Program-made: the position numbers and the translations under genes
Notes under the pieces: model-generated
What the model was told of the DNA's origin: nothing
Database searches by the model: none
Seen by the model: the letters and a program-made list of their open reading frames with translations, nothing else
Shown: piece after piece, positions 43,747-58,650 of the stretch
How the letters are laid out: the number at the start of each line of letters is the position of its first letter
Position numbering within the stretch: the first letter of the stretch is position 1
From: Candidatus Calditenuaceae archaeon HR02
GTDB taxonomy: Archaea > Thermoproteota > Nitrososphaeria_A > Caldarchaeales > Calditenuaceae
DNA length: 64,000 nt
Direction of reading: 5' to 3'
Assembly (NCBI GenBank): GCA_002898395.1
Contig: BEHE01000011.1
Coordinates: 1-64,000, forward strand

Positions 43747-43970
43747 AGTCTAAGAAGGGATGTTTTTGTGTTCTATGTCCATCCCGAGGACTATAAAAGT
43801 TCTTGGAGAAGGTCAGAGCATCTATACCCAGGAAGAAGTGTCTCATCGAACTCACGATAAAGATGATACAGTATCACATGGACGAGAAAGAGAAGGGAAG
43901 GCCTGTTAGAAGATTTGTAATATGTCGCAGAGAGATATCTGCAGGAGTGTGATGAAGCGCATACGAAAAC
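43747..43970 (+). pseudogene. 3' remnant of a LAGLIDADG-type endonuclease gene facing tRNA-Pro
   Basis: SLRRDVFVFYVHPEDYK/KFLEKVRASIPRKKCLIELTIK aligns with SRRDVYYIRIWRGFNKRFYEKVGF/TIERKR at 52198-52290; DNA homologous to the reverse complement of 58469-58650. Confidence 0.7.
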
Positions 43971-44034
43971 CCGCCCCCCTCCCTCCTTTATACCTTCTTT
44001 CTCACAACATTGAAAAAGCTCCAATTATTAAAAT

Positions 44035-44110
44035 TGGGGCCGGCCGGATTTGAACCGGCGACCTCCCGGGCCCGAGCCGGGCATCTTAGACCATGCTCGA
44101 CCACGGCCCC
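44035..44110 (-). tRNA. tRNA-Pro(CGG)
   Basis: GGGGCCG acceptor stem, CCCGG-CT-CGG-GC-CCGGG anticodon arm, GTTCAAATC T-loop; CCA not encoded. Confidence 0.95.
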
Positions 44111-44165
44111 CCTACGGCACTATGCAGACGCGCAAAAATAAACGTAATCCGGGCTGGAGGGATTG

Positions 44166-44396
44166 TTAGACGACTATAGCGGTTTCGGTTCTCTCCACCC
44201 CGTCGATTGTGTGTATCTTGGACAGCACCGTGTCTGTCAGCTTCTTCAAGTCTTCAGCCTCAATCAGGACTAGTACGTCATACCTGCCGGTAATCATGCA
44301 TGCGAGTCTGCATCCCGAAATTTTCCCAACCTGCTCTGCTACGTCCTTAGCCTTGCCCGCCCTCGTCGTGATGAAGACATATGCCTGGACCGCCAC
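44166..44396 (-). CDS. Lrp/AsnC ligand-binding-domain protein
   Basis: AYVFIT, ITGRYDVL, IDGVERTET. Confidence 0.88.
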   Translation of the reverse strand: MAVQAYVFITTRAGKAKDVAEQVGKISGCRLACMITGRYDVLVLIEAEDLKKLTDTVLSKIHTIDGVERTETAIVV

Positions 44397-44439
44397 AACT
44401 ACTCTACTGCCATATAACCGTATATCCTTTCCTCTTTAA

Positions 44440-45027
44440 CCAGGACTTCACAGACCCCTACCGCATTTGTGAAGTGTGGAGGGGTGGTGAGTGAACTGTG
44501 AAGTGTGAAATATGACCCGGGGATTCTGGAAAGTATATCTATGGATTATGTAGGTGTTACCTATATATGGATACTTGCAGTTTTCGGGTATCTCTCCGGG
44601 ATGCGTGATTGCTGCAGAAAATGAGCATTATCAAACCATCAGAGTCGGGGTCCGAGGTCTTTGATACCCATAACTCTACCCGGTTAAGATGGTGGTGAAA
44701 GGGTGAACGCCAACATTCCACAGGCTCCATTGGAAATGGAGGGGTTCTAAAGACCTCAACCCCATTCACAGTGAAAAGCCGCGAAAAACAGCTCCTCGGA
44801 CAGAAAGGGGAGAGTTAAGCCCTTAGGCCAAAGACCTATAATTGGCGGCTCAGATGAGTGGAGTAGCCAAACCAGCTTTAACGCCCCCACCCCACCCATT
44901 CGAGTGGAAATTAACTAGAATCAACACAAACAGAGAAGAGAAAATAAAATTAGATAAATAATTCTTCTCGTCCTAGAATTTTTTGACATAGCTATCATTA
45001 ACACTGCTAGCTATCTCTTGAATTGTT
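44440..45027. other. Probable replication origin (oriC) upstream of cdc6
   Basis: ORB-like TCCATTGGAAATGGAGGGGT at 44726-44745, an inverted ORB-like CCCCCACCCCACCCATTCGAGTGGAAA at 44884-44910, and an AT-rich tract ~44910-45020. Confidence 0.75.
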
Positions 45028-46299
45028 GTGGACGGCTTTCAGTTGAAGGAGAGGGGTGACCCTCTGGGCGACCTGCTGGCTAGGGTTTCTACAACGTCGC
45101 GCATATTCAAGGACAGAGAGGTTCTGCGAGCAGACTACATTCCTGGAAACCTTCCGCACAGGTGGGAGCATATCAAGAGGCTGGGTGAGATCGTCTCAAC
45201 AGGTCTCAAGATGCATAGGCCGAGTAACGTCTTCATATACGGCAAAACAGGGACGGGAAAGACCGCTGTTGTCAAGCATGTCTTCAAGAGGTTCTCTGCG
45301 GAGGCCGAGAAGCTCGGCATACCGCTCCGCTTCGTCTACATCAACTGCAGGATCGCTGGGACAGAGTATAGAGTCTTGGCCGAGCTCTGCGAATCCCTCG
45401 GGATCCAAGTCCCATTCACAGGCCTCTCGAAGAGCGAAGTCTTCAACAGGTTCCGAAGAGCTCACGTGTCTTCGCAGAACCTCCTGATAGTCTGTTTGGA
45501 TGAGATTGATATCTTGGTCAAAGGGTTTGGGGACGCCTTGCTATACGAGCTGACAAGGATTAATGAGGGTGTTGAGGGAGGCAAGCTCTCTCTCATTGGG
45601 GTGTCGAACGACCTCATGTTTAAGGAGATGCTAGACCCGAGGGTCTTAAGCAGTCTGAGCGAGGAGGAGATCGTCTTCCACCCATACACTGCCGTCGAGC
45701 TCGTCGACATTCTGAGCGAGAGGGCTAGACTCGCCTTTCACGAGGGCGCTGTCCCTCAATCGACTATAAACCTCTGTGCAGCGCTCGCTGCTGCTGAGCA
45801 CGGCGATGCTAGGAGAGCGCTCGACCTCTTGAGGGTGGCTGGAGAGATCGCTGAGAGGAATATGGCTGAGAGTGTTGAGGAGCAGCATGTTCGTATGGCG
45901 ATTGGCGTGATTGAACAGGGTCGCGTTTTCGAGGCCCTAACAACGCTCCCGCTCCACGGCAGGATTGTTCTACTTGCAGTCTACCAAGCGACACTCCGCT
46001 CACCAAGCAAAATAACCTCAGGTCTGGTCTACCAGTATTACCGCTCGCTCTGCAACCAGCTCGGCCTCGAACCACTCACCGATAGGAGGGTCAGCACCCT
46101 AATCTCGGAGCTAGACATGCTCGGAGTCCTCTCGAGCAGCGTCATAAGCTATGGGAGGTACGGGCGGACCAGGAAGATATCCTTGAAGATCCCCGTGGAC
46201 GAGGTCAGGCAGGCTCTGGAGCGCGACGAGTTTCTTTCCCACCTCATGGACCAGGAAGTGGCTCAGGCGGGTAGCGTGGAGAGTGAGCGAGGTAGCTAG
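45028..46299 (+). CDS. cdc6: Orc1/Cdc6 replication initiator
   Basis: YIP..LPHR, GKTGTGKT, LDEID, HGDARRALDLLR, GRYGRT. Confidence 0.96.
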   Translation: MDGFQLKERGDPLGDLLARVSTTSRIFKDREVLRADYIPGNLPHRWEHIKRLGEIVSTGLKMHRPSNVFIYGKTGTGKTAVVKHVFKRFSAEAEKLGIPLRFVYINCRIAGTEYRVLAELCESLGIQVPFTGLSKSEVFNRFRRAHVSSQNLLIVCLDEIDILVKGFGDALLYELTRINEGVEGGKLSLIGVSNDLMFKEMLDPRVLSSLSEEEIVFHPYTAVELVDILSERARLAFHEGAVPQSTINLCAALAAAEHGDARRALDLLRVAGEIAERNMAESVEEQHVRMAIGVIEQGRVFEALTTLPLHGRIVLLAVYQATLRSPSKITSGLVYQYYRSLCNQLGLEPLTDRRVSTLISELDMLGVLSSSVISYGRYGRTRKISLKIPVDEVRQALERDEFLSHLMDQEVAQAGSVESERGS

Positions 46300-47719
46300 G
46301 AGGCTTGCAGTCAAGGCGATCGAGCATGGCTATCAGCTCTCAGCCGAGGCTCTAGACAGGCTCCTCAGGGATGAGAATCCCTTAGGCCTTCTTGACGAGC
46401 TCCTTGCCTGGCTTGAGGCTAGGGGCACCAGCCAAGTAATAATTGACAGGCCCACGCTCGAGGTTTTCCTAGCGAGCAGAGTGGCTCGGGCCGGAGCCCC
46501 TGAAGAGGAGCAGCCCTTAGAGATCGTCCTCGAGTCGCCTACCTACGAGGACTTGTCGATAGAGGGTGTGTCGGAGGAGCAGCGAATCTATCTACTCTCT
46601 AGATTCCAGTCCATTCGGCGGGTATTCGAGGAGCGGGGCCTAGGACTCAGGCCGGCCAAGGAGCTGATGAGGGAGGAGGGTGAGGGCTATGTTGTTGGAA
46701 TGGTCTTGAGCATCGTGCGCCGAGATACGCATTTTCTAGTCGAGATGGAGGACCCTGTGGATACTTGGAGCCTAATAGCTCCCACACGCGACAGGGCCCT
46801 GGCAGCGAAGATGGAGTATATTCTGCAGGACATGGTCGTCGTCTTCCGTGCAAGGTCGAGGAGGGGACTATTGGTGGCGAGCGACGTCTACCTACCAGAC
46901 ACAGCGGGGAAGAAGCAGACATGGAGAGGCCCTGATAAGAACATATGCATAGTTTCAGACATCCACATAGGGAGTGAGAGACACGCGTCAGAGAGGTTCA
47001 GAAGCTTTCTCGACTGGGTCAGCAGTCCTGAGAACGAGGCCGAGAAGATAACTCTCCTAATAGTCAATGGAGACCTGGTCGACGGCGTGTATGTGTATCC
47101 TGGTCAGGAGTCCGAGCTCAGCCTTAAGTCGTATGCCGAGCAGTTCGCCGCCGCGGCTAAAGCCCTCTCAAGAATCCCGGCGCAGGTCAAGGTCGTCTAT
47201 GTGCCAGGGAACCACGAGCCCTGTAGGAGGGCGCTCCCCCAGCCGCCAGTTCAGATCAGGTATCGGCAGCTTCTCGGAGGCGGTGGCAGGATAGTCTACG
47301 CAGGCAACCCAGCGTGGATTAGGGTCGGGGGCCTAAAGATACTTGCATTCCACGGCCAGACGCTCGACGACGTGATACAGGCTGGGACGCTCTTCAGCTA
47401 CTCGACACTCCGCGAGAGGTCCAGTGAGATGATGGAGCTGCTCCTTAAGGCCAGACACTTGGCACCCACATTGGGCCTCTCCACACCCATACTACCCACG
47501 AGGACCGACTACCTCGCGGTACCCGAGCAGCCCGACATCCTCTGCCTAGGCCACACCCACGTAGCAGCCTACACAACCTATAAGGGAACACAGCTGGTAA
47601 ACAGCGGCTCATGGCAGGAGCAAACAAAGCTCCAAGAAAGCATAGGTCTTGAACCAACGGTCGGAACAGCGGTCCTACTAAACCTCAAATCCCTGTCAAT
47701 ACGCTTCCTATCCTTCTAG
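46283..47719 (+). CDS. DNA polymerase D small (proofreading) subunit DP1
   Basis: OB fold, SDIHIGS, GDLVDG.YPGQ, PGNHE, FHG, RHLAP, GHTH, NSGSWQ.QT. Confidence 0.92.
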   Translation: MSEVARRLAVKAIEHGYQLSAEALDRLLRDENPLGLLDELLAWLEARGTSQVIIDRPTLEVFLASRVARAGAPEEEQPLEIVLESPTYEDLSIEGVSEEQRIYLLSRFQSIRRVFEERGLGLRPAKELMREEGEGYVVGMVLSIVRRDTHFLVEMEDPVDTWSLIAPTRDRALAAKMEYILQDMVVVFRARSRRGLLVASDVYLPDTAGKKQTWRGPDKNICIVSDIHIGSERHASERFRSFLDWVSSPENEAEKITLLIVNGDLVDGVYVYPGQESELSLKSYAEQFAAAAKALSRIPAQVKVVYVPGNHEPCRRALPQPPVQIRYRQLLGGGGRIVYAGNPAWIRVGGLKILAFHGQTLDDVIQAGTLFSYSTLRERSSEMMELLLKARHLAPTLGLSTPILPTRTDYLAVPEQPDILCLGHTHVAAYTTYKGTQLVNSGSWQEQTKLQESIGLEPTVGTAVLLNLKSLSIRFLSF

Positions 47720-47835
47720 ACCGGCCGGGTGGTCTGGGGTTGGCGGATTCTTGCAGGCACTATATCAATCTTCCGCCATTAAAGCTGCATAGAATTATTA
47801 TTAGAGTTAGAGTTCTGACTTGTCCTGAAGACGGT

Positions 47836-49722: not shown

Positions 49723-49729
49723 CACATAA

Positions 49730-50026: not shown

Positions 50027-50035
50027 CCTTCCTAA

Positions 50036-50296
50036 TTAATCTGGATCCTTATATGAGATTCCTATCGACTCTACGAGCTTGCCGAGCATGTTTCCAGCAC
50101 ACCTCCCGAAGAAACCTCCTAAAACCTTGTCTCTAACGACTGCTGGAGGCGGAGGCTCAGCCCTCCTCCAACCCCTAGAGCGCGTCTCTATCTCGCTTAG
50201 CGATGTGGGCTCCTCGTATGGATAATCCCTCCTCATAGGCGCCGACCACAACTCTCTGAAGACAGCCTCAGCAACTCTGAGACCCCCTTCCGCCAC
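50036..50296 (-). pseudogene. Fragment of an ADP-ribosylglycohydrolase-family gene
   Basis: YPYEEPT.L..I..RDKVLGGFFGRCAGNMLGKLVE, then abrupt end. Confidence 0.55.
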
Positions 50297-50317
50297 CCTT
50301 CTTCTCTTCAGCCCTTA

Positions 50318-50700
50318 TCTTCTTGACTTGTTTCTTTGTTTTGTGTTGCATCTAACCTGTTCTGTGTTTATGTATTGTTGGCATTTTGAGCAGTATTTAA
50401 ATCCCCGACTATATGCACCACTCCTAGCGGCTGGATATATCTTAGACTCACATTCTCAAACCTTACTCTGAGGGTGTCTGTGGAGTAGTCTTATCCTGAT
50501 TGGCCTCTCCCTGTTTAATAATAGTTCTGAGGCCTCGGCAGGTCTCCTTACCTTAAGCCTGCCTGAGTCGATATCGTATTCTAGGCTCCCTGATATAGAG
50601 GCCTTCCTCGAGGGGAGTCTTGATGACAGCCCTATCACCCCCATTAATCATTCCTTCCAGTTCTGGCGCCTTAATCTTGAGCCCCGGCCCTCCACTGTTG
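50318..50700 (-). repeat. Dispersed repeat copy 2: longer decayed zinc-finger gene remnant
   Basis: 50318-50527 aligns to 4678-4908; fragments ELLLNRERPIRIR and GAYSRGFKYCSKCQQYINTEQVRC..RNKSRR. Confidence 0.75.
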
Positions 50701-50762
50701 TATGAGGCTGAGGACTAGGCCTAGTCGTGAATGTAGGAAGAGGTGGCCTAAACGGTACATAA

Positions 50763-51353
50763 GTGTCGAGGTCGAGGGGTGGATGGGGGGGTTTGGAGAG
50801 GCACTACCTCTCGTATCCGGTTAGGGTGAGGATGTGTCGAAGGGTGCTGGAGCTCAGGGGAGAGGGTCTGAGTTATGGGATGATTCTGGAGAGGCTTTAC
50901 GAGGAGTTCAGGGTGTGGATAAACAAGAGCCTTATCAGCTATTGGTTTAGGGGAATTCATACACCCAGATGCAGGGTCAATGTAATCAAGAAGGAGGATT
51001 ATTGGTTTGGGTATGTTGTCGGGAGTGTTTTATCGGATGGCAACAGAAATAGACATACTGGCAACATAGGCGTTGAAATATACACCAAGGATCGCGAGTT
51101 TACTGAGATGTGTACTAAGGCTCTGAGGAGGATAGGAGTGAGCCCATCGATAAGGTTCAAGGACGGTCGTTACATAGTGCGCGCAAAGTCAACCGAGCTA
51201 TACTATCTACTAGATAGTGGCTAGTGGCGGAAATACATAGACTCCGGCACCGAAGCTAGACTGGGATTCCTCAGGGGCTTCTTCGACGGTGATGGTGTCT
51301 ATCGGGGCTACGTTGCTGGCAATATTAGCTGTTCTAGTGGTGTTGAGGCCTAG
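50763..51353 (+). pseudogene. HTH + double-motif LAGLIDADG endonuclease, copy A (in-frame TAG, truncated)
   Basis: HTH GLSYGMI..KSLISYW; motif 1 GYVVGSVLSDG; TAG 51222-51224 then in frame WRKYID..LGFLRGFFDGDG (motif 2). Confidence 0.85.
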
Positions 51354-51442
51354 CATTGGATTGCTGACAGCGATTAAGGGCATGACGGCGATGAAATACT
51401 TGGCAGTATTGCTGATCCCCAAGTTAGTACAGGTGGCCTAGA

Positions 51443-52375
51443 ATGAGTGATAGGAGAGAAGAAATAATGGAGAAGAGGAGGAGGTGTCTTCCTAGAGATC
51501 TGAGGATAAAGATTTATGAGGATGTCCTGGAACTAGCAAAGAAAGGACTATCATACAGGGAGATAGTCAATGAGATAGAGAGGAGATAGGGAGTTGTTCT
51601 CAATGAATCCCAATGTAGCTACTGGAATAGAAGAATACATTCACCATACAACGGTATAAGGACCCCGTCGATAGAGTTTCTAAAACCATCAGAGGACTTA
51701 GCATATGTTATAAGTGTGGTGGCTGGGGATGGATGTGCTTGGCGGAGAGGTAGGCCACGGCGCGGATACAGGAAATACTGCATTGGATTAGAGGTTAAGG
51801 ATAGGGAGTTTGACGAGAGTTCGGTAGGAGGATAGCTAAGGTGTTAGGAAGAGAACCGCCGAGACCAAGGCTAAATAAATATGGTAGATGGGTCGTTGCA
51901 GTTCAGTCTAGGACTCTCTATGAATTGCTTAAGAAGCCCGTCGATATCGACAGAATAAGACCATTCGTTGAACACTGTGAGCGATGTATCTCAATGTTTC
52001 TGAGAGGGTTCTTTGATAGCGAGGCATGCGTCTATAAAGACGGCACCATAACCGTGTATAACACCGACTATAAACTACTAACATACGTCATATATCTCCT
52101 AGAGAAAATTAGTATAGAGACGACCCAGAAAGAGCCGAGGATTAATAAACGAGCTGGCGGACCGTTTAGAGAGCCAAAGACTGGCAAACTATACAAATCC
52201 AGAAGAGACGTCTACTACATCAGGATATGGAGGGGCTTTAATAAGAGGTTTTACGAGAAAGTTGGCTTTAACCATTGAAAGAAAAAGGATAAGGCTAGAA
52301 GAATATCTCAGGAGAAGAGGACTAATACCAACCACCTCCCCCCTTCCTCCTACTCCATTTCCCACTTACCCATAA
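51443..52375 (+). pseudogene. HTH + double-motif LAGLIDADG endonuclease, copy B, full length but disrupted, convergent on tRNA-Trp
   Basis: GLSYREIV, TAG 51587, LAYVISVVAGDG, frameshift ~51815, FLRGFFDSEA, frameshift ~52270, TIERKRIRLEEYL, stop 38 nt from the tRNA 3' end. Confidence 0.9.
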
Positions 52376-52413
52376 TCAAACCAACACACCCTCACTAACT
52401 AGAAACATAGCCA

Positions 52414-52520
52414 TGGGGCCGGTGGGACTTGAACCCACGGCTTCCGGGTCTCTTCTGTGCCAGCCACACGTGTTGATGGGATCTGGAGCCCGGCGCCCTA
52501 CCTTGCTAGGCCACGGCCCC
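52414..52520 (-). tRNA. tRNA-Trp(CCA) with a 33-nt intron at 37/38 (52450-52482)
   Basis: GGGGCCG acceptor, CCGGG-CT-CCA-G|intron|A-CCCGG, GTTCAAGTC T-loop. Confidence 0.92.
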
Positions 52521-52635
52521 GCCGCCTTCTTGAGAGTTGGGAAGCCACAATTAATCCTTTTTCCCGGCTGAGTGCCTTGCGGGAAACGTTAAAGCATGGT
52601 CTTGATGGTGTTTTGTCTGTCCGGTGTGGTGCTTC

Positions 52636-53520
52636 GTGAGGCTGGCTAGGTTTAGGGTTGGTGAGCTCACGACCTACGGGTTTGTTGAGGGGGACTACAT
52701 TGTTTCTAGGGAGGAGGTTGAGGAGGCAGCAGGTCTCGCGCTCCCACCCTATTTCTCGGACTTTGTTGAGAGGCTTATCGTTGAGCAGGATTTTCGAAAA
52801 CTTGTGCTGGAGGCCTCGAGGAAGTCTCCGCGCGTCTTAAAGCTAAGCCAAGCCAAACTCCTCGCACCCACCGATAATAAGCCGAAGATAATATGTATCG
52901 GGCTCAACTATAGGGACCATGCTGAGGAGTCAAGGGCTGAGGTTCCCGACGAGCCGATAATCTTCATGAAACCACACACGGCCCTGACTGGGCCATACGA
53001 TCCCATCGAGTACCCCTCTATCGTCACACAGCTCGACTACGAGGCTGAGCTGGCCGTGGTTATTGGGAGGAAGTGCCGAGGGGTGGAACCAGGCGAGGCG
53101 CCCGACTTTATCTGTGGCTATGCCGCCTTCAACGACGTATCGGCCAGGAACCTCCAGTTCAAGGATAAGCAGTGGACACGTGGAAAATCATTCGATACAT
53201 TCGCACCCATGGGTCCGTGGATAGTCACGCGCGACGAGATACCTGACCCTCAGAACCTTAGGATAATGTCTCGCGTAAACGGGGAGACGAGACAGAACTC
53301 GAACACGAGGAACATGATCTTCGGAGTCTACTATCTGGTCTCTTTCATTAGTATGGTTATGACACTTGAGCCTGGCGACGTCATAGCGACGGGGACTCCT
53401 GCAGGGGTCGGGATATTTGCCAAGCCGGAGCCGAAGCTACTCAAGATTAATGACGTGGTCGAGGTGGAGGTTGAGAGCATAGGAGTGTTAAGGAACACTG
53501 TTGTTAAGGGTCGTGTATAA
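52636..53520 (+). CDS. Fumarylacetoacetate hydrolase family protein
   Basis: KIICIGLNYRDHAEE, DYEAEL, NDVSAR, GKSFDTF, GDVIATGTPAG. Confidence 0.93.
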   Translation: MRLARFRVGELTTYGFVEGDYIVSREEVEEAAGLALPPYFSDFVERLIVEQDFRKLVLEASRKSPRVLKLSQAKLLAPTDNKPKIICIGLNYRDHAEESRAEVPDEPIIFMKPHTALTGPYDPIEYPSIVTQLDYEAELAVVIGRKCRGVEPGEAPDFICGYAAFNDVSARNLQFKDKQWTRGKSFDTFAPMGPWIVTRDEIPDPQNLRIMSRVNGETRQNSNTRNMIFGVYYLVSFISMVMTLEPGDVIATGTPAGVGIFAKPEPKLLKINDVVEVEVESIGVLRNTVVKGRV

Positions 53521-53612
53521 GCCTAGTGCGGCGACAATTTTCCGCTTCATGCATCAATTTCTATACATTTGAAGAATAAAAAATCATATTTGATGCAACA
53601 ACACAAGAGTAA

Positions 53613-55001
53613 GTGGAAAACAGACATGAGAAACTCTTATTATCTCTCATGCACCATGTAGGGTGTGGTGAGTTATTGGATCAGGTAAAGCTGGGGGAAC
53701 TGGCTGTAAGATATTCGAGGCTTTATGGGGGTAAGATCGAGGTTCATCCAAAGGTCCCAGTCAGGGGGCTTCAGGACTTCTCGATCTGGTATACGCCAGG
53801 CGTTGCTGAGGTCTGCAGGGCCATTGTGAAGGACAGGGACGAGGTCTTCAACCTGACCAATAGGTGGAACACGATAGCCGTGTTGACCAATGGGACACGC
53901 GTTCTGGGGCTGGGGAACATTGGCCCAGAGGCAGGTCTACCGGTGATGGAGGGGAAGGCGCTGATCTTCAAGTATCTCGGTGGTGTCGATGCGATCCCCC
54001 TTGCCGTGAGGACCGATTCGCCCGAACAGTTCATCCAAGTGGCAAAGATGTTGGAACCCTCCTTCGGGGGCCTAAACCTCGAGGACATCCAGTCACCCGA
54101 CTGCTTCTACATACTTGAGAGACTAATGTCGGATCTTGAGATTCCGGTCTGGCATGACGACCAGCTGGGAACTGCGGCCGCGACTCTTGCAGCCCTCATC
54201 AATGCGCTTAAGCTCACGGGCCGCTCGCCGAGGGAGTGCAGAGTAGTCCTACTTGGCGCTGGCGCAGCGAACATCGCCACCGCAGTCCTCCTCGAGAAGT
54301 ACTGCTTCGACCCTGGGAAGATGATTCTCGTAGACAGGAATGGGATATTGCACTCTGAGAGGGAGGACATGGACTCGCTGATGCTGAAGAATCGCTGGAA
54401 GTATGAGATAGCTCTCAAGACGAATAGGGATAGGGTGAAGGGTGGGCTGAGGGAGGCCTTGGTGGGGGCGGACGTGCTCATAGCTGCGTCGACCCCTGGG
54501 CCGGGAATTGTTAAGCCCGAGGATGTGGAGTTGATGGAGAAGGACCCGATAGTCTTCGCCCTCGCAAACCCGGTACCCGAGATATGGCCCTGGGAGGCCA
54601 AGCGGGCTGGAGCCGCCATAGTCGCGACCGGGAGGAGCGACCTCCCAAACCAAGTGAACAACAGCCTGATATTCCCCTCAGTCTTCCGAGGAGCCCTCGA
54701 CTGCAGCGCCCGCCGAATCTCCTATGAGGCAATGATCCGAGGGGCGGAGGAGCTCGCGCGATGCGCAGAGGAAAAGGGCCTCTCACCCGACTACATTATC
54801 CCGACCATGGAGGAGTGGACGGTCTATCCAAGAGTGGCGGCCGCTGTTGCGCAAACCCTGTCTAGGCAGGGGCTTGCACGCCGAAAGATCAGCTATGAGG
54901 AGGAGCTTGAACGGGCTAGTAGGATAATCTCAAGGTCTAGGCGGATTCTCAGCGCACTCGTCGATTCGAGGATTGTGGAGGTTCCAGCCTCCGAGGTCTA
55001 G
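53613..55001 (+). CDS. NAD(P)-dependent malic enzyme
   Basis: YTPGVA, GLGNIG..PVMEGK, NLEDI, HDDQLGT, ANPVPEI, TGRSD.PNQVNN; true start probably ~53676. Confidence 0.93.
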   Translation: MENRHEKLLLSLMHHVGCGELLDQVKLGELAVRYSRLYGGKIEVHPKVPVRGLQDFSIWYTPGVAEVCRAIVKDRDEVFNLTNRWNTIAVLTNGTRVLGLGNIGPEAGLPVMEGKALIFKYLGGVDAIPLAVRTDSPEQFIQVAKMLEPSFGGLNLEDIQSPDCFYILERLMSDLEIPVWHDDQLGTAAATLAALINALKLTGRSPRECRVVLLGAGAANIATAVLLEKYCFDPGKMILVDRNGILHSEREDMDSLMLKNRWKYEIALKTNRDRVKGGLREALVGADVLIAASTPGPGIVKPEDVELMEKDPIVFALANPVPEIWPWEAKRAGAAIVATGRSDLPNQVNNSLIFPSVFRGALDCSARRISYEAMIRGAEELARCAEEKGLSPDYIIPTMEEWTVYPRVAAAVAQTLSRQGLARRKISYEEELERASRIISRSRRILSALVDSRIVEVPASEV

Positions 55002-55026
55002 CGATAGGACCGGTTAAGGAGATATA

Positions 55027-55473
55027 TTGAGGCTCCGCGATGAATGGCTAGTGGTTAGGGTTAGTCTTAGCAGGCTTGAGGCAGTCTATCTCGTCGAGCT
55101 CCATAAAATGGCTGATGAAGCGCGGACGGGGACTAGCGCGCTCGCTGCCAGGTTTGGTGTGAAGGGGTCAAGCGTGGTAGATGTGGTTAAGAGGCTTGAG
55201 AAGAAGGGGCTAGTCGTTAGGGAGCCGTGGAGGTCGATATCCCTTACTAGGCGGGGGGAGGCGCTTGCCGAGCAGCTCATACACAACCACCGGGTCATAG
55301 AGACCTATTTCCACAGGGTTCTCAACCTCCCAGCCCAGCTCGCATGTAGTGAGGCCCAGAAACTCGACAGCCTCCTAAGCTGGAGAACCATAACCTCTAT
55401 GTGCCGCGCCCTAAACTATCCTACAACATGTATACACGGCGAAAAGATAAAACATTATAGAAGGTGTAAGTAA
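55027..55473 (+). CDS. DtxR/MntR family metal-dependent repressor
   Basis: wHTH plus HRVIETY..ACSEA, PTTCIHG. Confidence 0.88.
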   Translation: MRLRDEWLVVRVSLSRLEAVYLVELHKMADEARTGTSALAARFGVKGSSVVDVVKRLEKKGLVVREPWRSISLTRRGEALAEQLIHNHRVIETYFHRVLNLPAQLACSEAQKLDSLLSWRTITSMCRALNYPTTCIHGEKIKHYRRCK

Positions 55474-55479
55474 AATCGG

Positions 55480-56550
55480 CTACTGCACAACCTTTCTGAG
55501 GCGCCGAGGCCTGTCCGGGTCAAGCCCCTTCTCCACCGCCGTATAATATGCGAGGAGCTGAAACGGGACAACCTCAACCGCGGTCGCCAACACGTGGGAT
55601 ATCCGCGGAAGAGTCACGTCGGCACCTAGCCCCCCGCCCTCGTGGGAGAGCATCATAATCTGCGAGCCTGATGACAAAGCCTCAGTGGCCACCTTCTCGA
55701 AGACGTCTAAGTAGTCGCCGGGCTCCGGCGGCGTTATGAACATGCATGCCACATCACTATCCAATAGGGAGATAGGGCCGTGTCTGAACTCGCCTATCGA
55801 GTAGGCTTCCGCGTGTATTCCGCAGGTCTCCTTCAGCTTGAGTGATGCCTCGAGAGCCGCTATGTAGGAGGGGCCGTAGCCGAGGATAAACGCGTGCCTG
55901 ACGCTTGCCAGCTTCTTGGCCTGCCTCTGCATAAGCTCCTCGGAGCGGTCTATTGTCTGTCCTAGGAGGCCGGGAAGCTTGGATAAGTCCTCTCTAAGCG
56001 AATCGGCTACAAGCCTAGCAGGGGCTAGGCCGAAGGCTAGGGAATAGACCGCTGCCAGCTGGGCCATGAAGCTCTTGGTGGCCGGAATAGCCCTCTCCAC
56101 GCCACACTTAACCACGACCACGTAGCGGGCCAGAGACCCAAGCGTGCTGTCTGGAACGCTTGTCAAAGCTAGGACGTCAACACCTTTCGCCGAAGCGAGC
56201 CGAGCTGCTCTAACCGTGTCCACGGATTCGCCCGACTGCGAGATGGCCACTAGGAGGTGGCCCCTTTGGAGAAAGTTGTGGACGTGCTCGGAGTACTCTG
56301 AAGCATGGACGGAGTAGGCCTCAATGCCTGCGATTCTCGAGGCAGCATAGCTTAGACAGAGGCCTGCATGGTGTGAGGAACCACTACTACATGTTATGAT
56401 ACGCCTATACCTTGCGCCTATCTCATCCGAAGGGACACCCATCACGCTAAGAGCCTCGAGCGTCTCACGGAACGCCGCAGGCCCCTCGCGAATCTCTCGT
56501 ATCATGTAGTGGCTGGCCGTCAACTCCTCCACACTACCAGGGCCTGGCAC
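55480..56550 (-). CDS. Double-SIS sugar-phosphate isomerase/deaminase (GlmS C-terminal/GlmD-like)
   Basis: SGSSHHA, ISQSGES, ATKS, LKLKE, EFRHGP, PDRPRRL.K. Confidence 0.88.
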   Translation of the reverse strand: MPGPGSVEELTASHYMIREIREGPAAFRETLEALSVMGVPSDEIGARYRRIITCSSGSSHHAGLCLSYAASRIAGIEAYSVHASEYSEHVHNFLQRGHLLVAISQSGESVDTVRAARLASAKGVDVLALTSVPDSTLGSLARYVVVVKCGVERAIPATKSFMAQLAAVYSLAFGLAPARLVADSLREDLSKLPGLLGQTIDRSEELMQRQAKKLASVRHAFILGYGPSYIAALEASLKLKETCGIHAEAYSIGEFRHGPISLLDSDVACMFITPPEPGDYLDVFEKVATEALSSGSQIMMLSHEGGGLGADVTLPRISHVLATAVEVVPFQLLAYYTAVEKGLDPDRPRRLRKVVQ

Positions 56551-56570
56551 GGCCCTTAAATGACTGTTGC

Positions 56571-57737
56571 TCAGCGCCTCGTCTTCCGGAACTTCTCAAC
56601 GTCCTCTTCTCTTATTGATATGCCCAGCCCTGGCTTTGTAGGCGGCTCAAACTCCCCGTTGGAGTGTTTGATCGCGTCCCCTGCTAATGCCTCCCTGAGC
56701 GGGTTAGGCCTGAGGTGGAACTCAATGATTGGCGAGTCGATTGTGAGGGCCGTGTGCAGGCTTGCGACGAATCCTATCCCACCCGCCGAGTAGTGGGGTA
56801 TCAGCGGGAGACCGTAGCTCCTCGCAAGTACACCTATCCTCAGCATCTCTGTTATCCCACCATTCCAGGCAGCGTCTGCCTGGACAATATCGACAGCGTA
56901 TCTCGAGATAAGCTCCCTGAACTCGTGTACCGTGAAGGCGGTCTCATAGCCGGCTATCGGTACATCAAGCTGCGCCGCCAGCCTAGCACTTAGTTCGGGA
57001 TAATCAGTGGATATCGGCTCTTCGAAGAAGATTATTCCCAGCTTCTCCAACTCCCTCCCCATTCTCAGGGCCTGGTTAAAATCGTAAACATTGTTGGCGT
57101 CCACGGCGATTTCGAGACCTCCACCGAACCTCTCATTCAAGGCTTTGAGACGCCTGATGTCCTCCTCAATGCTGAGGCCGCCGACCTTAATCTTGACAGT
57201 CTTGAAACCGCTCCTAACATATCCCTCAACCTCCTCAACCAGCCTTGGAATATCTTTGTCAGGCCTATAGTAGCCCCCCGTGATATACCCCTTCATCCTC
57301 CTAGAGTTTCCGCCGAGAAGCCTGTGGATCGGTGCCCCGAACTCCTTTCCAGCTAAGTCCCAGAGGGCGATGTCAACCCCGCTCATCGCTGAGACCACTA
57401 TCCCCCTCCTCCCAAGCCTGAAAGTGGCCTTGTACATCTTGTCCCATAGATGCCAAATGTTCGTCGACTCCTCACCCCTAACTATCCGGCTCAAAACACT
57501 GTTGACGGTAACCGCCACGCTCTCAGGCGAACCATAGCCTATCGCCTCGCCAAACCCGACGCCTCCGTCAGAAGTCTCAACGCGGATGAGGCAAACCTCC
57601 ATCGGATGCTCAGCCCCACCAACAACCGCCAGCGCGTCCCTCTCATAAAACTCCGTAAACTCCAAGACCTCACAGCCTACACTAGCAATCCTCAAGGCAA
57701 GGAGAGAAAAGCCCGGGGAAATTAAAACATTTTTCAC
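56571..57737 (-). CDS. Mandelate racemase/muconate lactonizing enzyme family protein
   Basis: DIALWD, KIK, VDAN, EEP, GYE, PH; start probably a little downstream. Confidence 0.9.
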   Translation of the reverse strand: MKNVLISPGFSLLALRIASVGCEVLEFTEFYERDALAVVGGAEHPMEVCLIRVETSDGGVGFGEAIGYGSPESVAVTVNSVLSRIVRGEESTNIWHLWDKMYKATFRLGRRGIVVSAMSGVDIALWDLAGKEFGAPIHRLLGGNSRRMKGYITGGYYRPDKDIPRLVEEVEGYVRSGFKTVKIKVGGLSIEEDIRRLKALNERFGGGLEIAVDANNVYDFNQALRMGRELEKLGIIFFEEPISTDYPELSARLAAQLDVPIAGYETAFTVHEFRELISRYAVDIVQADAAWNGGITEMLRIGVLARSYGLPLIPHYSAGGIGFVASLHTALTIDSPIIEFHLRPNPLREALAGDAIKHSNGEFEPPTKPGLGISIREEDVEKFRKTRR

Positions 57738-57793
57738 GACTCTACGCTACAGGCTTGCGTGTGTTTAAATCCACGCCCTCATCAAGTCTACTT

Positions 57794-58276
57794 GTGGAGC
57801 TCAAGATCATCGGATACGTCAGGGTTGACGCTGATGATGAATATGTTAGGTCTCATGCAGGCACGGTGGTGGGTAGCATAGAGATCCTGCCCGAATACGA
57901 GGAGGCTCTAAACGGGCTGGAAGAGTACTCACACATATTCATAATATCGATTCTCCACAAGATACCGCCTGAGGGCAGGACTGTGTTGAAGGTGAGGCCG
58001 AGGAGGCTGCTGAGGATTGGGTTCAGGGAGAGGGAGGTGCCCCTTGTCGGCGTGTTTGCGTCAGACTCGCCTGCGAGGCCGAACCCGATAGGCCTAACAC
58101 TCGTGAGGCTCCTCAAGCGCGAGGGGAGGGTCCTCAGGGTCGAGGGCCTAGACCTCTTCGACGGTACACCACTCGTCGACATAAAGCCCTACAAACCCGA
58201 CTACAGGGTCGAGGAATACAACTGCCCAGACTGGGCAAAACTAGACTCCAACCCCCAACCCAACAAGAAAGACTAG
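57794..58276 (+). CDS. tsaA: tRNA N6-threonylcarbamoyladenosine(37) N6-methyltransferase TrmO/TsaA family
   Basis: GLEEYSH, GVFA..SPARPNPIG, GLDLFDGTPLVDIKPY. Confidence 0.88.
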   Translation: MELKIIGYVRVDADDEYVRSHAGTVVGSIEILPEYEEALNGLEEYSHIFIISILHKIPPEGRTVLKVRPRRLLRIGFREREVPLVGVFASDSPARPNPIGLTLVRLLKREGRVLRVEGLDLFDGTPLVDIKPYKPDYRVEEYNCPDWAKLDSNPQPNKKD

Positions 58277-58351
58277 GACTCCCCCGCCAACCAGCCGCTC
58301 CGAGTTATCCAAAAATACCCCCAGCCCCACCACTCTACGCGGGGGCAGGAC

Positions 58352-58426
58352 GCTCCGGTAGTATAGCCCGGTCAAGTATGCGGGCCTCTCGAGCCCGAGA
58401 CCCGGGTTCAAATCCCGGCCGGAGCA
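58352..58426 (+). tRNA. tRNA-Glu(CTC)
   Basis: GCTCCGG acceptor, CGGGC-CT-CTC-GA-GCCCG, GTTCAAATC. Confidence 0.95.
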
Positions 58427-58468
58427 TTAAAAGTTATTATTAATAAGCATGAGGAGATGAAGGAGTGA

Positions 58469-58650
58469 GTTTTCGTCTGTGCTTCATCATACTCCTGCCG
58501 ATATCTCTCAGTAACATATTACAAATCTTCCAACAGTCCTTCCTTTCTCCTATCTCGTCCATATAATACCGTATATTCTTTATCGAGAGTTCGATGAGAC
58601 GCCGCTTTCGAGGTATCGACGTTCCGACGTAATCATGGAACTTCTGATGG
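58469..58650 (-). pseudogene. 3' remnant of a LAGLIDADG-type endonuclease gene facing tRNA-Glu
   Basis: Minus strand HQKFHDYVGTSIPRKRRLIELSIKNIRYYMDE; DNA homologous to 43790-43970. Confidence 0.7.

What the first reader, a model, noticed from the sequence alone, without database searches (positions are those of the whole stretch)
43747..58650. All three tRNA genes are met head-on by a LAGLIDADG endonuclease gene or its remnant: a tRNA-3'-targeting mobile element family
Seen: at tRNA-Trp a full-length disrupted HTH-LAGLIDADG gene stops 38 nt from the tRNA 3' end. At tRNA-Pro (43747-43970) and tRNA-Glu (58469-58650, reverse) two 'intergenic' stretches share clear DNA homology (e.g. GTCTCATCGAACTC.CGATAAAG, ATGGACGAGA, GAAGATTTGTAATATGT, GAGAGATATC.GCAGGAGT.TGATGAAGC). 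They encode the same C-terminal motif (RRDV..KF.(E/D).V..SI.RK) and end 64 and 42 nt from their tRNAs. All three are convergent on the tRNA and separated from it by a pyrimidine-rich spacer. No intron, intein, integrase or duplicated tRNA end encloses them. Known: LAGLIDADG enzymes usually home from introns or inteins. From memory, LAGLIDADG-like genes beside tRNAs have been noted in Caldiarchaeum, so the association may be partly known; I know of no established mechanism. Inference: free-standing elements that recognise conserved tRNA sequence (T-arm/acceptor), insert just downstream, spread between different tRNA loci and then decay.
Basis: partly seen in the sequence, partly recalled or inferred. 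Interest (0 to 1): 0.88.

Follow-up and report, generated by a model that had tools for sequence, protein, structure and literature searches.

The report
Endonuclease genes parked behind tRNA genes
A family of selfish LAGLIDADG endonuclease genes in hot-spring archaea sits, whole or decayed, immediately after the 3' end of most tRNA genes, which points to a mobile element specialised on tRNA gene ends.

Summary
The window's three tRNA genes (Pro, Trp, Glu) each face a convergent HTH + double-LAGLIDADG gene or remnant. Genome-wide, 27 of 44 curated tRNA genes do (random placement: mean 0.08, maximum 2), and 6 more keep only the element's trailer. The organism is a Caldarchaeales ('Aigarchaeota') archaeon. 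The family occurs in 28 of 41 related genomes (0-55 matches each). In 50 of 72 loci from named public genomes, reaching Nitrososphaerales, a tRNA starts 39-310 nt after the gene core on the opposite strand. The protein resembles I-DmoI and keeps both catalytic acidic residues. Congeners have empty sites. At tRNA-Trp the flank joins the tRNA 3' end directly, so the window's 2,358-nt insertion begins exactly at that end, with no target duplication. One congener has a full element inside tRNA-Pro, with the old 32-nt tRNA end left at its far side and a new intron at the junction. Sister copies within one genome sit at different tRNAs. Mobility, precise siting, spread and decay are shown. That the endonuclease itself recognises tRNA DNA is inferred. 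I found no description of this in six literature searches. Verdict: new variant of a known kind.

The parts
44035..44110 (-). tRNA-Pro(cgg) gene. Its 3' end is at 44035.
   Evidence: ARAGORN; Rfam 60.6 bits.
43665..44034 (+). DNA at the Pro locus that is absent from the empty sites of congeners G007 and G004. Its right-hand 291 nt (43744-44034) are a remnant of a subfamily-A LAGLIDADG gene (last ~95 codons, frameshifted) plus the element's trailer, which abuts the tRNA 3' end.
   Evidence: In G007, 9 nt separate the end of left-flank homology from the tRNA; in G004, 28 nt. tblastn to the C25 A-type copy, E 2e-4. DNA homology to other A-type copies runs through the trailer into the tRNA.
52414..52520 (-). 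tRNA-Trp(cca) gene with a 33-nt intron. Its 3' end is at 52414.
   Evidence: Rfam 58 bits; ARAGORN with intron search.
50056..52413 (+). The whole 2,358-nt insertion at the tRNA-Trp 3' end, absent from five congeners. No target-site duplication.
   Evidence: In G005 and G002 the left flank joins the tRNA 3' end with 0 nt between. The gap is 1 nt in G007, 10 nt in G006 and 60 nt in G004.
50056..50302 (+). A 247-nt duplicate of a gene fragment whose other copy is on contig C10 (14231-14477). It forms the left edge of the Trp insertion.
   Evidence: 96.8% identity. Single matches to this stretch in G006, G005, G007 and G004 lie away from their Trp loci.
50303..50807 (+). 'R500', a ~500-nt multi-copy non-coding module with a sharp left end. 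Elsewhere in the genome it is the leader of an IS110-like ORF family ('ORF280'). Here it leads into LAGLIDADG copy A.
   Evidence: 38 blastn matches in the genome. An alignment of 8 copies shows that solo copies run into the ORF280 start. ORF280 resembles IS110-family transposases in the ESM Atlas only.
50763..51353 (+). LAGLIDADG copy A (subfamily A). It keeps the HTH, the first LAGLIDADG domain and the start of the second (motif GFFDGDG), has an in-frame stop at 51222-51224, and has lost its 3' third.
   Evidence: Frames. Weak Pfam LAGLIDADG_3 matches (E 0.0024 and 0.0047). 61-88% amino-acid identity to C25 17896-18401.
51428..52375 (+). LAGLIDADG copy B (subfamily B). It is full length but dead: an in-frame TAG at 51587-51589, a frameshift near 51814-51835 and another near 52270. 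The last frame stops at 52375.
   Evidence: Frames. Pfam LAGLIDADG_3 E 8.2e-12. 60-63% identity to the C2 copy, with stops.
52376..52413 (+). Trailer of the B-type element, pyrimidine-rich on the gene strand. It is shared with the copies at tRNA-Ile and tRNA-Phe and abuts the tRNA-Trp 3' end.
   Evidence: downstream sequences sorted by family.
58352..58426 (+). tRNA-Glu(ctc) gene. Its 3' end is at 58426.
   Evidence: ARAGORN; Rfam 62.7 bits.
58427..58650 (-). Remnant of a subfamily-A LAGLIDADG gene (last ~70 codons plus trailer), convergent on tRNA-Glu. At the same place congener G002 has a 43-nt unrelated spacer and G005 a long B-like gene match.
   Evidence: tblastn E 1e-19 to the C25 copy. 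Empty and filled comparison.

Best explanation
The three features belong to a large family of free-standing selfish genes. Each encodes a monomeric, I-DmoI-like endonuclease of about 270-300 residues, made of an N-terminal helix-turn-helix region and two LAGLIDADG domains.

The element consists of a variable upstream module, the gene, and a short family-specific trailer. It lies immediately after the 3' end of a tRNA gene, with the gene pointing at the tRNA.

Shown:
- The element is present or absent at the same tRNA among congeners.
- Its right boundary is the last nucleotide of the tRNA, or in some events a point inside the tRNA's 3' part.
- There is no target duplication.
- Copies move between tRNAs of different identity within a genome.
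- Internally deleted copies that keep both ends have also been copied to new tRNAs.
- Copies then decay, down to a trailer-only relic.

Inferred: the endonuclease cuts at or near the 3' end of tRNA genes. The break is repaired by copying from an occupied tRNA locus, and the conserved T-arm and acceptor sequence serves as the homology on one side. That would explain three things: the fixed orientation, homology that runs from the element into the tRNA, and occasional co-conversion of the tRNA's 3' segment. When the copied tract starts inside the tRNA, the old tRNA end is left at the far side of the element and an intron can appear at the junction.
For: Family identity.
- Pfam LAGLIDADG_3 passes its cut-off in five tested copies or pieces: E 8.2e-12, and 4.8e-18, 3e-13, 4.9e-17 and 1.5e-6.
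- An alignment of 8 intact cores has both motifs, with invariant D81 and E179.
- A profile search of solved structures gives I-DmoI first, E 1.8e-11.
- The AlphaFold2 model has pLDDT 85.2. Its best Foldseek match is I-DmoI, E 3.8e-9, TM 0.72 by target.

Association with tRNAs.
- In this genome 27 of 36 loci, equal to 27 of 44 curated tRNAs, are convergent and end 9-149 nt from a tRNA 3' end. Random placement gave a mean of 0.08 and a maximum of 2.
- 6 further tRNAs keep only the trailer.
- 2 of the 9 exceptions face tRNA-like T-arm sequences that both tRNA callers missed.
- In named public genomes, 50 of 72 loci with enough downstream DNA have a tRNA on the opposite strand starting 39-310 nt after the core.
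- In congener G002, 5 of the 6 listed matches end 66-86 nt before such a tRNA.

Mobility and siting.
- Empty sites exist at Trp (5 congeners), Pro (2), Glu (G002; G006 has an unrelated 101-nt spacer) and Val(tac) (G002).
- At Trp the junction is exact and has no duplication.

Spread.
- Three starred same-genome sister pairs sit at Thr/Ser, Val/Arg and Ser/Pro.
- The same deletion junction occurs at Pro(tgg) and Thr(ggt). Another occurs at Asn(gtt) and Ser(tga), and by position also at three orphan copies.

The tRNA end travels with the element.
- DNA homology between copies runs 22-40 nt into the tRNA.
- The copy at tRNA-His keeps the last 4 nt of tRNA-Leu, and an orphan copy keeps 7 nt of tRNA-Glu.
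- The G002 element is bracketed by the old and a new 32-nt tRNA-Pro end, with a 33-nt hairpin intron at the junction.
- tRNA-Val(tac) of this genome has the T-loop of its tRNA-Pro(cgg) and shares a private trailer variant with it. All five congeners whose 3' half is present differ at that T-loop base.
Against: - No cleavage activity, target site or recombination intermediate has been seen. The link between enzyme and siting is inference.
- An occupied tRNA gene is still an intact tRNA gene. A target lying wholly inside the tRNA would leave occupied sites, about 30 per genome, cleavable. The empty-site trailers share no evident motif.
- Break repair by homology needs a second homologous arm. 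At most loci none is apparent on the far side.
- Junctions vary: exact tRNA end, 4, 7, 17 or 32 nt inside the tRNA, or 13 nt beyond it. A single precise cut-and-copy would not give that.
- Many remnants keep a piece of the R500 leader at their far end, and at Val(tac) the inserted unit begins at R500's own left terminus. That is what a transposon with two required ends would look like.
- 22 of the 72 public loci show no tRNA on the opposite strand downstream. One (L042) has the tRNA on the same strand, and five have a same-strand tRNA upstream of the gene.
- T-loop type does not predict colonisation (p = 0.14).
Confidence: 0.55

Rival explanations
1. The LAGLIDADG gene is cargo. The unit is moved in trans by another recombinase, for instance the IS110-like ORF280 family whose leader modules (R500 and the 1.1-kb repeat) precede many LAGLIDADG genes, or a host or plasmid integrase acting on tRNA 3' ends.
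For: - R500 and the 1.1-kb repeat are each followed either by ORF280 or by a LAGLIDADG gene, switching within about 20 nt of the start codon.
- A-type remnants keep the R500 5' end at their far side, and the Val(tac) insertion starts within about 10 nt of R500's own left end.
- Insertion is precise, oriented and without duplication. From memory, IS110-family elements behave the same way.
- The G002 element has att-like 32-nt direct repeats of the tRNA end.
- ORF280 resembles IS110 transposases in the ESM Atlas (feature score 0.94-0.95; TM 0.73 to a cluster carrying PF01548 and PF02371).
Against: - None of the 17 tblastn matches of ORF280 in this genome (about 12 places) lies within 1.5 kb of a tRNA. 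The shared leaders therefore do not carry the tRNA preference.
- The upstream module differs between genomes: the G002 module has no DNA match in G000. The gene-trailer-tRNA arrangement, by contrast, holds from Caldarchaeales to Nitrososphaerales.
- In the Trp, Pro, Glu and Val insertions of this genome I recognised only LAGLIDADG and R500 sequence. No integrase-sized frame stands out, but I ran no integrase profile search.
- No tRNA-end direct repeats in this genome.
- ORF280's IS110 likeness rests on the Atlas alone. Pfam and PDB sequence searches found nothing.
Confidence: 0.2
2. The elements insert widely, by whatever means, and survive only behind tRNA genes. That flank is a safe harbour, so the pattern reflects selection and ectopic gene conversion among old relics rather than targeting.
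For: - Dispersed relics give ample homology for gene conversion. Mosaic copies exist with the same deletion junction but different trailers.
- Other differences in gene content also occur right after the same tRNAs in G003 and G004, without LAGLIDADG homology.
Against: - The boundary falls on the exact last tRNA nucleotide at Trp, and orientation is constant in 27 of 27 tRNA-linked loci. Passive survival would not fix either.
- Seven of the 36 loci lie away from a recognisable tRNA. Of these, two are followed by a short tRNA-3'-like fragment, and one is only a weak match.
- An orphan seen only (C1 149842-149991) likewise keeps 7 nt of a tRNA end.
- Sister copies within a genome lie at different tRNAs, which implies repeated arrival at tRNA ends.
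Confidence: 0.12
3. The protein is a domesticated DNA-binding factor with a job at tRNA genes (for example in termination, or in protection from integrating elements). It is kept by the host, and the broken copies are by-products of duplication.
For: - The gene-tRNA arrangement is conserved over large distances. A clade of three copies stays next to tRNA-Cys(gca) in three Nitrososphaerota genomes, and two further genomes also have a copy at tRNA-Cys.
- Most full-length matches listed in relatives have no stop codon.
- LAGLIDADG plus HTH proteins can be regulators: WhiA appears among the fold matches.
Against: - Copy number runs from 0 to 55 matches per genome, and 13 of 41 related genomes had no match with this query.
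- The element is present or absent at single tRNAs among congeners.
- Most copies in this genome are pseudogenes.
- Both catalytic acidic residues are invariant. From memory, WhiA has lost them.
- WhiA ranks well below I-DmoI (E 8.8e-6 against 3.8e-9).
Confidence: 0.08

Closest known systems
I-DmoI and other monomeric archaeal LAGLIDADG homing endonucleases
   Same: Two LAGLIDADG domains in one chain with a conserved acidic residue in each motif. I-DmoI is the best sequence match (E 1.8e-11) and the best fold match.
   Different: From memory, I-DmoI is encoded inside an rRNA intron and homes to the intron-less allele. The present genes are free-standing, carry an extra N-terminal HTH region (two in some relatives), sit behind tRNA genes, and occur at many non-allelic sites per genome.
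Free-standing homing endonuclease genes of phages, such as T4 SegB in the phage tRNA gene cluster
   Same: An endonuclease gene outside any intron or intein that promotes its own inheritance together with flanking DNA. From memory, SegB lies among tRNA genes and cuts in the tRNA region of related phages. SegB as a phage homing endonuclease was seen only in the abstract of PMC13096335 in a search listing.
   Different: From memory, SegB is a GIY-YIG enzyme at a single locus that competes between co-infecting genomes. Here the enzyme is a LAGLIDADG type, occupying up to dozens of chromosomal tRNA loci in cellular genomes.
Integrative plasmids and viruses of archaea that recombine with the 3' (or 5') part of tRNA genes through SSV-type or pNOB8-type integrases
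   Same: The tRNA gene is the landing site. In G002 the element is bracketed by old and new copies of the tRNA's 3' 32 nt, and the tRNA is rebuilt from the element's copy. This layout matches the one described in the Discussion of PMC3293823 (passages found by term search).
   Different: I recognised no integrase in the units examined. This genome has no att-type repeats. The units are 0.3-2.4 kb rather than plasmid- or virus-sized. The adjacent gene is a LAGLIDADG endonuclease.
The 'a + b' insertion sequence at tRNA-Thr(GGU) of Caldiarchaeum subterraneum (Sugahara et al. 2012, PMC3293823)
   Same: Same order of archaea. A repeated non-coding module 'a' (545 bp, 6 copies) is coupled to an 813-bp ORF 'b' (7 paralogues). 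It lies next to a tRNA and is associated with a tRNA fragment and a gained intron (abstract, section 6 and passages read). Similar events were seen here in G002 (old 3' end plus gained intron) and G006 (a stranded 5' half).
   Different: The authors called 'b' a putative DNA recombinase from a classifier and did not name a family. They place it on the same strand as the tRNA and saw the link only for tRNA-Thr. Whether 'b' is the LAGLIDADG family or the IS110-like ORF280 (both fit in size; R500 + ORF280 fits the a + b layout) was not tested. Their supplementary figures were not available to me.
Eukaryotic retrotransposons that target tRNA genes (yeast Ty3, Dictyostelium TRE elements)
   Same: From memory, these are selfish elements that use the flanks of tRNA genes as a safe, multi-copy landing pad with a fixed distance and orientation.
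   Different: They are RNA-mediated, are guided by pol III transcription factors, and make target duplications. None of this applies here.
WhiA (bacterial LAGLIDADG + HTH transcription factor)
   Same: It combines LAGLIDADG domains with an HTH, and it appears among the fold matches.
   Different: It ranks lower. From memory, its HTH is C-terminal and its catalytic residues are lost. Here the HTH is N-terminal and both acidic residues are invariant.

Membership tests
LAGLIDADG homing endonucleases (monomeric, two-domain type) | Two LAGLIDADG motifs, each ending in a conserved acidic residue | tested here: met
   Motif 1 (...GDG) has invariant D81 and motif 2 (...DSEG or DAEG) has invariant E179 in 8 of 8 aligned intact members.
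LAGLIDADG homing endonucleases (monomeric, two-domain type) | Match to a curated LAGLIDADG profile above its cut-off | tested here: met
   PF14528 scores 45.7-65.6 bits against a cut-off of 22.5 for window 51814-52275 and three long copies, and 28.8 bits for the C25 A-type copy. The short Pro and Glu remnants do not match Pfam on their own. They match only through the C25 copy.
LAGLIDADG homing endonucleases (monomeric, two-domain type) | Alpha-beta-beta-alpha-beta-beta-alpha fold, twice in one chain | tested here: met
   Predicted model with pLDDT 85.2. The top Foldseek matches are I-DmoI chains (probability 1.00, TM 0.67-0.75 by target), followed by PI-PfuI and I-SceI. This is a prediction, not a solved structure.
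LAGLIDADG homing endonucleases (monomeric, two-domain type) | Site-specific double-strand cleavage of a long target | not testable with these tools
   It needs protein and DNA at the bench.
LAGLIDADG homing endonucleases (monomeric, two-domain type) | Homing: occupied and empty alleles of the same site in related genomes | tested here: met
   Empty and occupied sites at the tRNA-Trp, Pro, Glu and Val(tac) loci among eight congeners. This shows the polymorphism, not the process.
LAGLIDADG homing endonucleases (monomeric, two-domain type) | Residence in a self-splicing intron, an archaeal intron or an intein (usual, not obligatory) | tested here: not met
   The genes lie beyond the tRNA 3' end. 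The Trp intron is 33 nt and lies elsewhere in the gene. No host protein frame surrounds them.
Integrase-borne integrative elements at tRNA genes | A tyrosine (SSV- or pNOB8-type) integrase gene within the element | tested here: not met
   The Trp insertion holds only R500 and two LAGLIDADG copies, and the Pro and Glu units are under 400 nt. Of the frames in the 2.1-kb G002 element I recognised only the LAGLIDADG gene. I ran no dedicated integrase profile search.
Integrase-borne integrative elements at tRNA genes | Direct repeats of the tRNA end (attL and attR) bracketing the element | tested here: inconclusive
   Absent in this genome for the last 24 nt with up to 4 mismatches within 6 kb. Present at the G002 tRNA-Pro locus (32 nt). 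Short 7-17-nt old ends occur at some far sides.
IS110-family insertion sequences | A DEDD-type recombinase encoded by the element itself | tested here: not met
   The LAGLIDADG units carry no ORF280. ORF280 copies lie elsewhere, never within 1.5 kb of a tRNA. ORF280's own IS110 likeness is only a lead from the ESM Atlas.
WhiA-like domesticated LAGLIDADG regulators | One conserved copy per genome with degenerate catalytic residues (recalled) | tested here: not met
   0-55 matches per genome, with the catalytic residues kept.

The most novel reading that the evidence does not exclude
This is a new class of homing element whose endonuclease reads the 3' end of tRNA genes as a generic, multi-copy target. 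It colonises dozens of tRNA loci per genome across Nitrososphaerota. When its copying tract starts inside the tRNA, it is a direct source of the disrupted tRNA genes of archaea: gained non-canonical introns, stranded tRNA halves, and perhaps split tRNAs. That would give the old question of how archaeal tRNA genes become fragmented a concrete, testable agent.
Probability: 0.3. Interest if true: 0.88.

Novelty: new variant of a known kind. Interest (0 to 1): 0.76.

Why it matters
LAGLIDADG enzymes are known as residents of introns and inteins that home to one allelic site. Here a family lives outside any intron and uses the end of tRNA genes as a landing site. One genome offers about 45 such sites.

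Three things follow.
- It would be a prokaryotic, DNA-based counterpart of the tRNA-targeting retrotransposons of eukaryotes.
- The G002 and G006 loci show tRNA fragments, and in G002 a new intron, arising at these loci. This bears on the origin of intron-containing and split tRNA genes in archaea.
- The repeats break assemblies. Several contigs of this genome end inside a copy, so tRNA counts and completeness of such genomes are affected.

An enzyme family that has diversified on similar but non-identical tRNA-end targets would also be a natural source of thermostable endonucleases with graded specificities.

Tried and rejected
- Duplicated tRNA ends in this genome: none within 6 kb, apart from a neighbouring tRNA. 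The search would miss repeats with more than 4 changes in 24 nt.
- T-loop type (TTCRAAT or other) against colonisation: 24 of 33 colonised against 5 of 11 uncolonised, p = 0.14. A post hoc test, dropped.
- Rfam on six loci holding the upstream modules: only tRNAs, a 5S rRNA and one sub-threshold match. No RNA family was found for the 1.1-kb repeat.
- Pfam, at E up to 10, on ORF280, on the 'SPPY' ORF of the 1.1-kb repeat and on the zinc-ribbon ORF: nothing. PDB sequence search with ORF280: nothing.
- The upstream module of the G002 element has no DNA match in this genome.
- NCBIfam on the window's fragments: nothing useful.
- Larger differences after the same tRNAs in G003 and G004 (0.6-3.5 kb) carry no LAGLIDADG homology at E 1e-4. 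Of six ORFs tested, one is an apiosidase-like gene and five have no Pfam family. I read these as differences in gene content, not as this element.
- Literature: six searches found no description of LAGLIDADG genes at tRNA 3' ends in archaea. The survey of integrated elements in Thaumarchaeota (PMC6563490) was seen only in a listing, which reports zero occurrences of 'LAGLIDADG'.
- The look-up of sequencing runs could not be reached in five tries. No read-level test for empty and filled alleles in one population was made, and read laying was not used.

Full report
1. What is in the window

Rfam finds exactly three tRNA genes: Pro(cgg) 44035-44110 (-), Trp(cca) 52414-52520 (-, with an intron) and Glu(ctc) 58352-58426 (+). 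ARAGORN without intron search misses Trp.

On the strand opposite to tRNA-Trp, a run of broken frames ends at 52375, 38 nt from the tRNA 3' end. It is two tandem genes, not one.
- Copy A (50763-51353) has an in-frame stop and has lost its 3' third.
- Copy B (51428-52375) is full length but has an in-frame TAG and two frameshifts.
- Pfam LAGLIDADG_3 matches 51814-52275 at E 8.2e-12.

They do not match Pfam by themselves. They do match the C-terminal part of a longer paralogue on contig C25 (tblastn E 2e-4 and 1e-19), and that paralogue passes Pfam (E 1.5e-6).

2. The pattern covers the whole genome

The window is contig C11 of a 1.73-Mb, 36-contig genome. I searched that genome by tblastn with seven copies representing three subfamilies:
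- A, with an extra ~45-residue tail;
- B;
- C, which includes the two copies that look intact (C29 518-1399 and C28 9002-9850).

At E 1e-3 or better this gives 36 loci. 27 of them are convergent on a called tRNA and end 9-149 nt from its 3' end. That is 27 of 47 ARAGORN calls, or 27 of 44 after dropping three dubious calls: two with 574- and 974-nt 'introns', and one overlapping another tRNA on the other strand. Random placement of the 36 loci, 2000 times, gave a mean of 0.08 and a maximum of 2.

The nine exceptions are:
- C6 91980 and C25 18556, which face T-arm-bearing tRNA-like sequences that both callers missed;
- C14, which is cut by a contig end;
- C2 62741 and C31 9130, which are followed by a 17-nt tRNA-3'-like fragment and then another repeat;
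- C9 27118, C29 11294, the intact C28 copy, and a weak match at C1 95880.

Six more tRNAs keep only the first 30-120 nt of the element's trailer. So 33 of 44 tRNAs carry some trace, and 11 show none. Several contigs begin or end inside a copy, so the repeats break the assembly.

3. What the protein is

An alignment of eight intact cores from this genome and relatives (272 residues) shows an N-terminal helical region and two LAGLIDADG motifs. One acidic residue in each motif is invariant (D81, E179).
- A profile search of solved structures gives I-DmoI first (E 1.8e-11), then PI-PfuI and other intein endonucleases.
- The AlphaFold2 model (pLDDT 85.2, pTM 0.74) matches I-DmoI best in Foldseek (E 3.8e-9, TM 0.72 by target). 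I-SceI and WhiA rank lower.
- Public annotation already calls these proteins 'LAGLIDADG family homing endonuclease' or 'intein-encoded DNA endonuclease-like protein'. 996 protein clusters match at E 1e-10 or better.

The gene family is therefore known by name. What is new is where it sits.

4. Who has it

The nearest named genomes are Candidatus Calditenuis, Caldarchaeum, Geocrenenecus, Wolframiiraptor and other Caldarchaeales ('Aigarchaeota'). More distant members occur in Nitrososphaerales and Nitrosopumilales. With one protein query, 28 of 41 related genomes have a match. The count per genome runs from 0 to 55, and most full-length matches listed carry no stop codon.

Of the 80 public loci fetched, 72 have at least 200 nt beyond the gene core.
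- In 49 of them ARAGORN finds a tRNA on the opposite strand starting 39-310 nt (mostly 70-125) after the core. Rfam adds one more, giving 50 of 72.
- Five of the 49 rest on ARAGORN calls with wrapped coordinates or very long introns.
- Among the 22 without such a tRNA, one has a tRNA on the same strand just after the gene (L042). Five have a same-strand tRNA 270-800 nt upstream of the gene.

In the near-complete congener G002, five of six listed matches end 66-86 nt before a tRNA on the opposite strand.

In 35 of the 50 positive loci I followed the frame to its stop. In 26 the stop lies 4-107 nt before the tRNA. In 9 the frame runs on into the antisense tRNA.

5. Mobility, and the exact landing point

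I compared four loci across the eight genomes of the genus.
- tRNA-Trp. In G005 and G002 the left flank is joined to the tRNA 3' end with nothing between. The gap is 1 nt in G007, 10 nt in G006 and 60 nt in G004. The window's insertion is therefore 50056-52413 (2,358 nt). Its right edge is the nucleotide after the tRNA's last base, and nothing is duplicated.
- tRNA-Pro. G007 and G004 are empty, with gaps of 9 and 28 nt.
- tRNA-Glu. G002 has an unrelated 43-nt spacer and G006 a 101-nt one. G005 has a long B-like gene match (query residues 50-290).
- tRNA-Val(tac), on C11 beyond the window. G002 is empty. This genome has a 659-nt unit that ends at the tRNA 3' end and starts within about 10 nt of the left end of the R500 repeat.

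G003 and G004 also show larger differences after some of these tRNAs. Those carry no LAGLIDADG homology and look like ordinary differences in gene content.

6. The tRNA end can travel with the element

Between copies at different tRNAs, DNA homology runs through the trailer and 22-40 nt into the tRNA. Part of that is simply the conserved T-arm. Stronger cases follow.
- In G002 a 2,113-nt element with an open LAGLIDADG frame lies inside tRNA-Pro(cgg). At its far side sit 32 nt identical to this genome's tRNA-Pro 3' end. The working tRNA uses a different 32-nt end, with a compensated T-stem of the type seen in G007. A 33-nt perfect-hairpin insert lies at the junction, and ARAGORN reads it as an intron.
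- In this genome the B-type copy at tRNA-His begins with the last 4 nt of tRNA-Leu, and an orphan copy keeps 7 nt of the tRNA-Glu end.
- tRNA-Val(tac) of this genome has the T-loop of its own tRNA-Pro(cgg) and shares a private trailer variant with it. The five congeners that retain the 3' half have a different T-loop base. This is a single nucleotide, so it is only a hint.
- In G006 a complete tRNA-Val(tac) is followed, 46 nt on, by a stranded old 5' half.

7. Spread between tRNAs, and decay

I built a tree from 45 public copies plus 3 from this genome. 57 of the 80 loci were given (those with long matches), and 12 were dropped for internal stops. The tree has three strongly supported sister pairs from one genome each, sitting at Thr/Ser, Val/Arg and Ser/Pro. 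It also has one clade that stays at tRNA-Cys(gca) in three Nitrososphaerota genomes.

In this genome, remnants are often internal deletions that keep both ends.
- The same junction (first ~15 codons fused to the last ~95) occurs at Pro(tgg) and Thr(ggt).
- Another junction (about 120 nt of R500 fused to the last ~45 codons) occurs at Asn(gtt) and Ser(tga). By position it also occurs at three orphan copies, sometimes with a different trailer.

So non-autonomous derivatives have been copied to new sites, and copies exchange segments.

8. The upstream modules

Two repeats precede many copies. R500 (window 50303-50807; 38 matches) precedes A-type genes. A 1.1-kb repeat (for example C2 61531-62650) precedes B-type genes. 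Elsewhere each of these leads into a ~280-residue ORF family, ORF280. ORF280 has no Pfam or PDB sequence match but resembles IS110-family transposases in the ESM Atlas. None of the ORF280 matches (17 tblastn rows, about 12 places) lies within 1.5 kb of a tRNA. The tRNA preference therefore goes with the LAGLIDADG gene and its trailer, not with the shared leaders.

9. How it most likely works

Shown:
- a mobile, oriented unit that lands at the very end of tRNA genes;
- spread among tRNAs of different identity;
- decay of copies.

Inferred: the encoded endonuclease makes the break, and repair copies the element from an occupied locus, with the conserved tRNA 3' part serving as homology. This fits four observations: the conserved catalytic residues, the fixed orientation, homology that runs into the tRNA, and occasional replacement of the tRNA end.

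Open problems:
- how occupied tRNAs escape cutting;
- what supplies the second homology arm;
- why the junctions vary;
- why both ends are kept in deletion derivatives.

The last point is the best argument for the rival, in which a recombinase moves the unit in trans. I put the endonuclease-driven reading at 0.55. The rivals get 0.20 (mobilisation in trans), 0.12 (safe-harbour survival) and 0.08 (domesticated factor).

10. What is known

- Six full-text searches found no account of LAGLIDADG genes at tRNA 3' ends in archaea.
- The Caldiarchaeum genome paper mentions homing endonucleases only for rRNA introns (PMC3082918, passages found by term search).
- Sugahara et al. 2012 (PMC3293823; abstract, section 6 and passages read) described a 1,868-bp insertion at tRNA-Thr(GGU). 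It consists of a repeated 545-bp region plus an 813-bp ORF of unnamed family, and comes with a tRNA fragment and a gained intron. They proposed a plasmid-integrase origin.
- That is the closest precedent. Whether their ORF is this family or ORF280 could not be tested, and their supplementary figures were not available.

11. Verdict

The enzyme family is known, but its niche, a precise and multi-copy residence at tRNA gene 3' ends across a phylum with side effects on tRNA gene structure, is a new variant of a known kind.

Noticed in passing
window 50303-50807 (also window 4676-4907, and about 35 other places in G000): R500 is a ~500-nt multi-copy non-coding repeat with a sharp left end. In solo copies it runs straight into the start of a ~280-residue ORF family (ORF280), which resembles IS110-family transposases in the ESM Atlas only. 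About 120 nt of its 5' end abut the far side of many LAGLIDADG remnants. Whether it encodes a guide-type RNA was not examined.
   Followed up: partly
G000 C2 61531-62650; also C24 18185-19324, C18 20-938, both ends of C3, the end of C31, the start of C29, the end of C6, C19, C22: A 1.1-kb repeat (85-92% identical copies) in which several contigs end. It holds a 217-244-residue frame with an SPPY-type motif and, on the other strand, a 121-170-residue zinc-ribbon frame. Neither has a Pfam match. It is followed either by a B-type LAGLIDADG gene or by ORF280.
   Followed up: partly
window 50056-50302: A 247-nt stretch, 96.8% identical to G000 C10 14231-14477 (a gene fragment), forms the left edge of the tRNA-Trp insertion. 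It looks like donor flank carried along with the element.
   Followed up: partly
L114 (G002 C1 884900-889400) 941-972 and 3086-3194: tRNA-Pro(cgg) of congener G002 has a 33-nt perfect-hairpin insert at a non-canonical position, exactly at the junction with the element-borne 3' segment. The displaced old 3' end survives 2.1 kb away. This is a recent case of intron gain plus tRNA fragment formation.
   Followed up: partly
L132 (G006 C17 3931-8179) 1380-1540: A complete tRNA-Val(tac) is followed, 46 nt on, by a stranded 5' half of the same tRNA next to the native upstream flank. No LAGLIDADG homology was found in the fetched 4.2-kb stretch.
   Followed up: partly
G000 C28 about 8780-8830 (+): A sequence that reads like the 5' half of a tRNA (acceptor, D-arm, anticodon stem) faces the 3' end of the intact C-type LAGLIDADG gene (9002-9850, -). 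No matching 3' half was seen nearby.
   Followed up: no
G000 C6 about 91760-91900 (+) and C25 about 18790-18885 (-): Two tRNA-like sequences with canonical T-arms and long variable arms were missed by both ARAGORN and Rfam. The first lies between a 5S rRNA gene (C6 91520-91638) and a LAGLIDADG pseudogene. The second is cut by the contig end.
   Followed up: partly
G000 C4 51082-51174 (-): ARAGORN calls a tRNA with a four-base anticodon (cgga) and no amino acid. Rfam scores it at 50.8 bits. It carries an A-type remnant like its neighbours.
   Followed up: no
proteins P0055 and P0090: Close family members (about 50% identity to the query) are labelled as coming from Nezhaarchaeales and Jordarchaeales genome bins, outside Nitrososphaerota. 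This could be transfer or mis-binning.
   Followed up: no
L021, L024, L114 (relatives): Some family members carry a second HTH-like region of ~60 residues in front of the usual one. Precomputed Pfam lists HTH_32 and HTH_21, domains that I recall as common in transposases, for some clusters.
   Followed up: no
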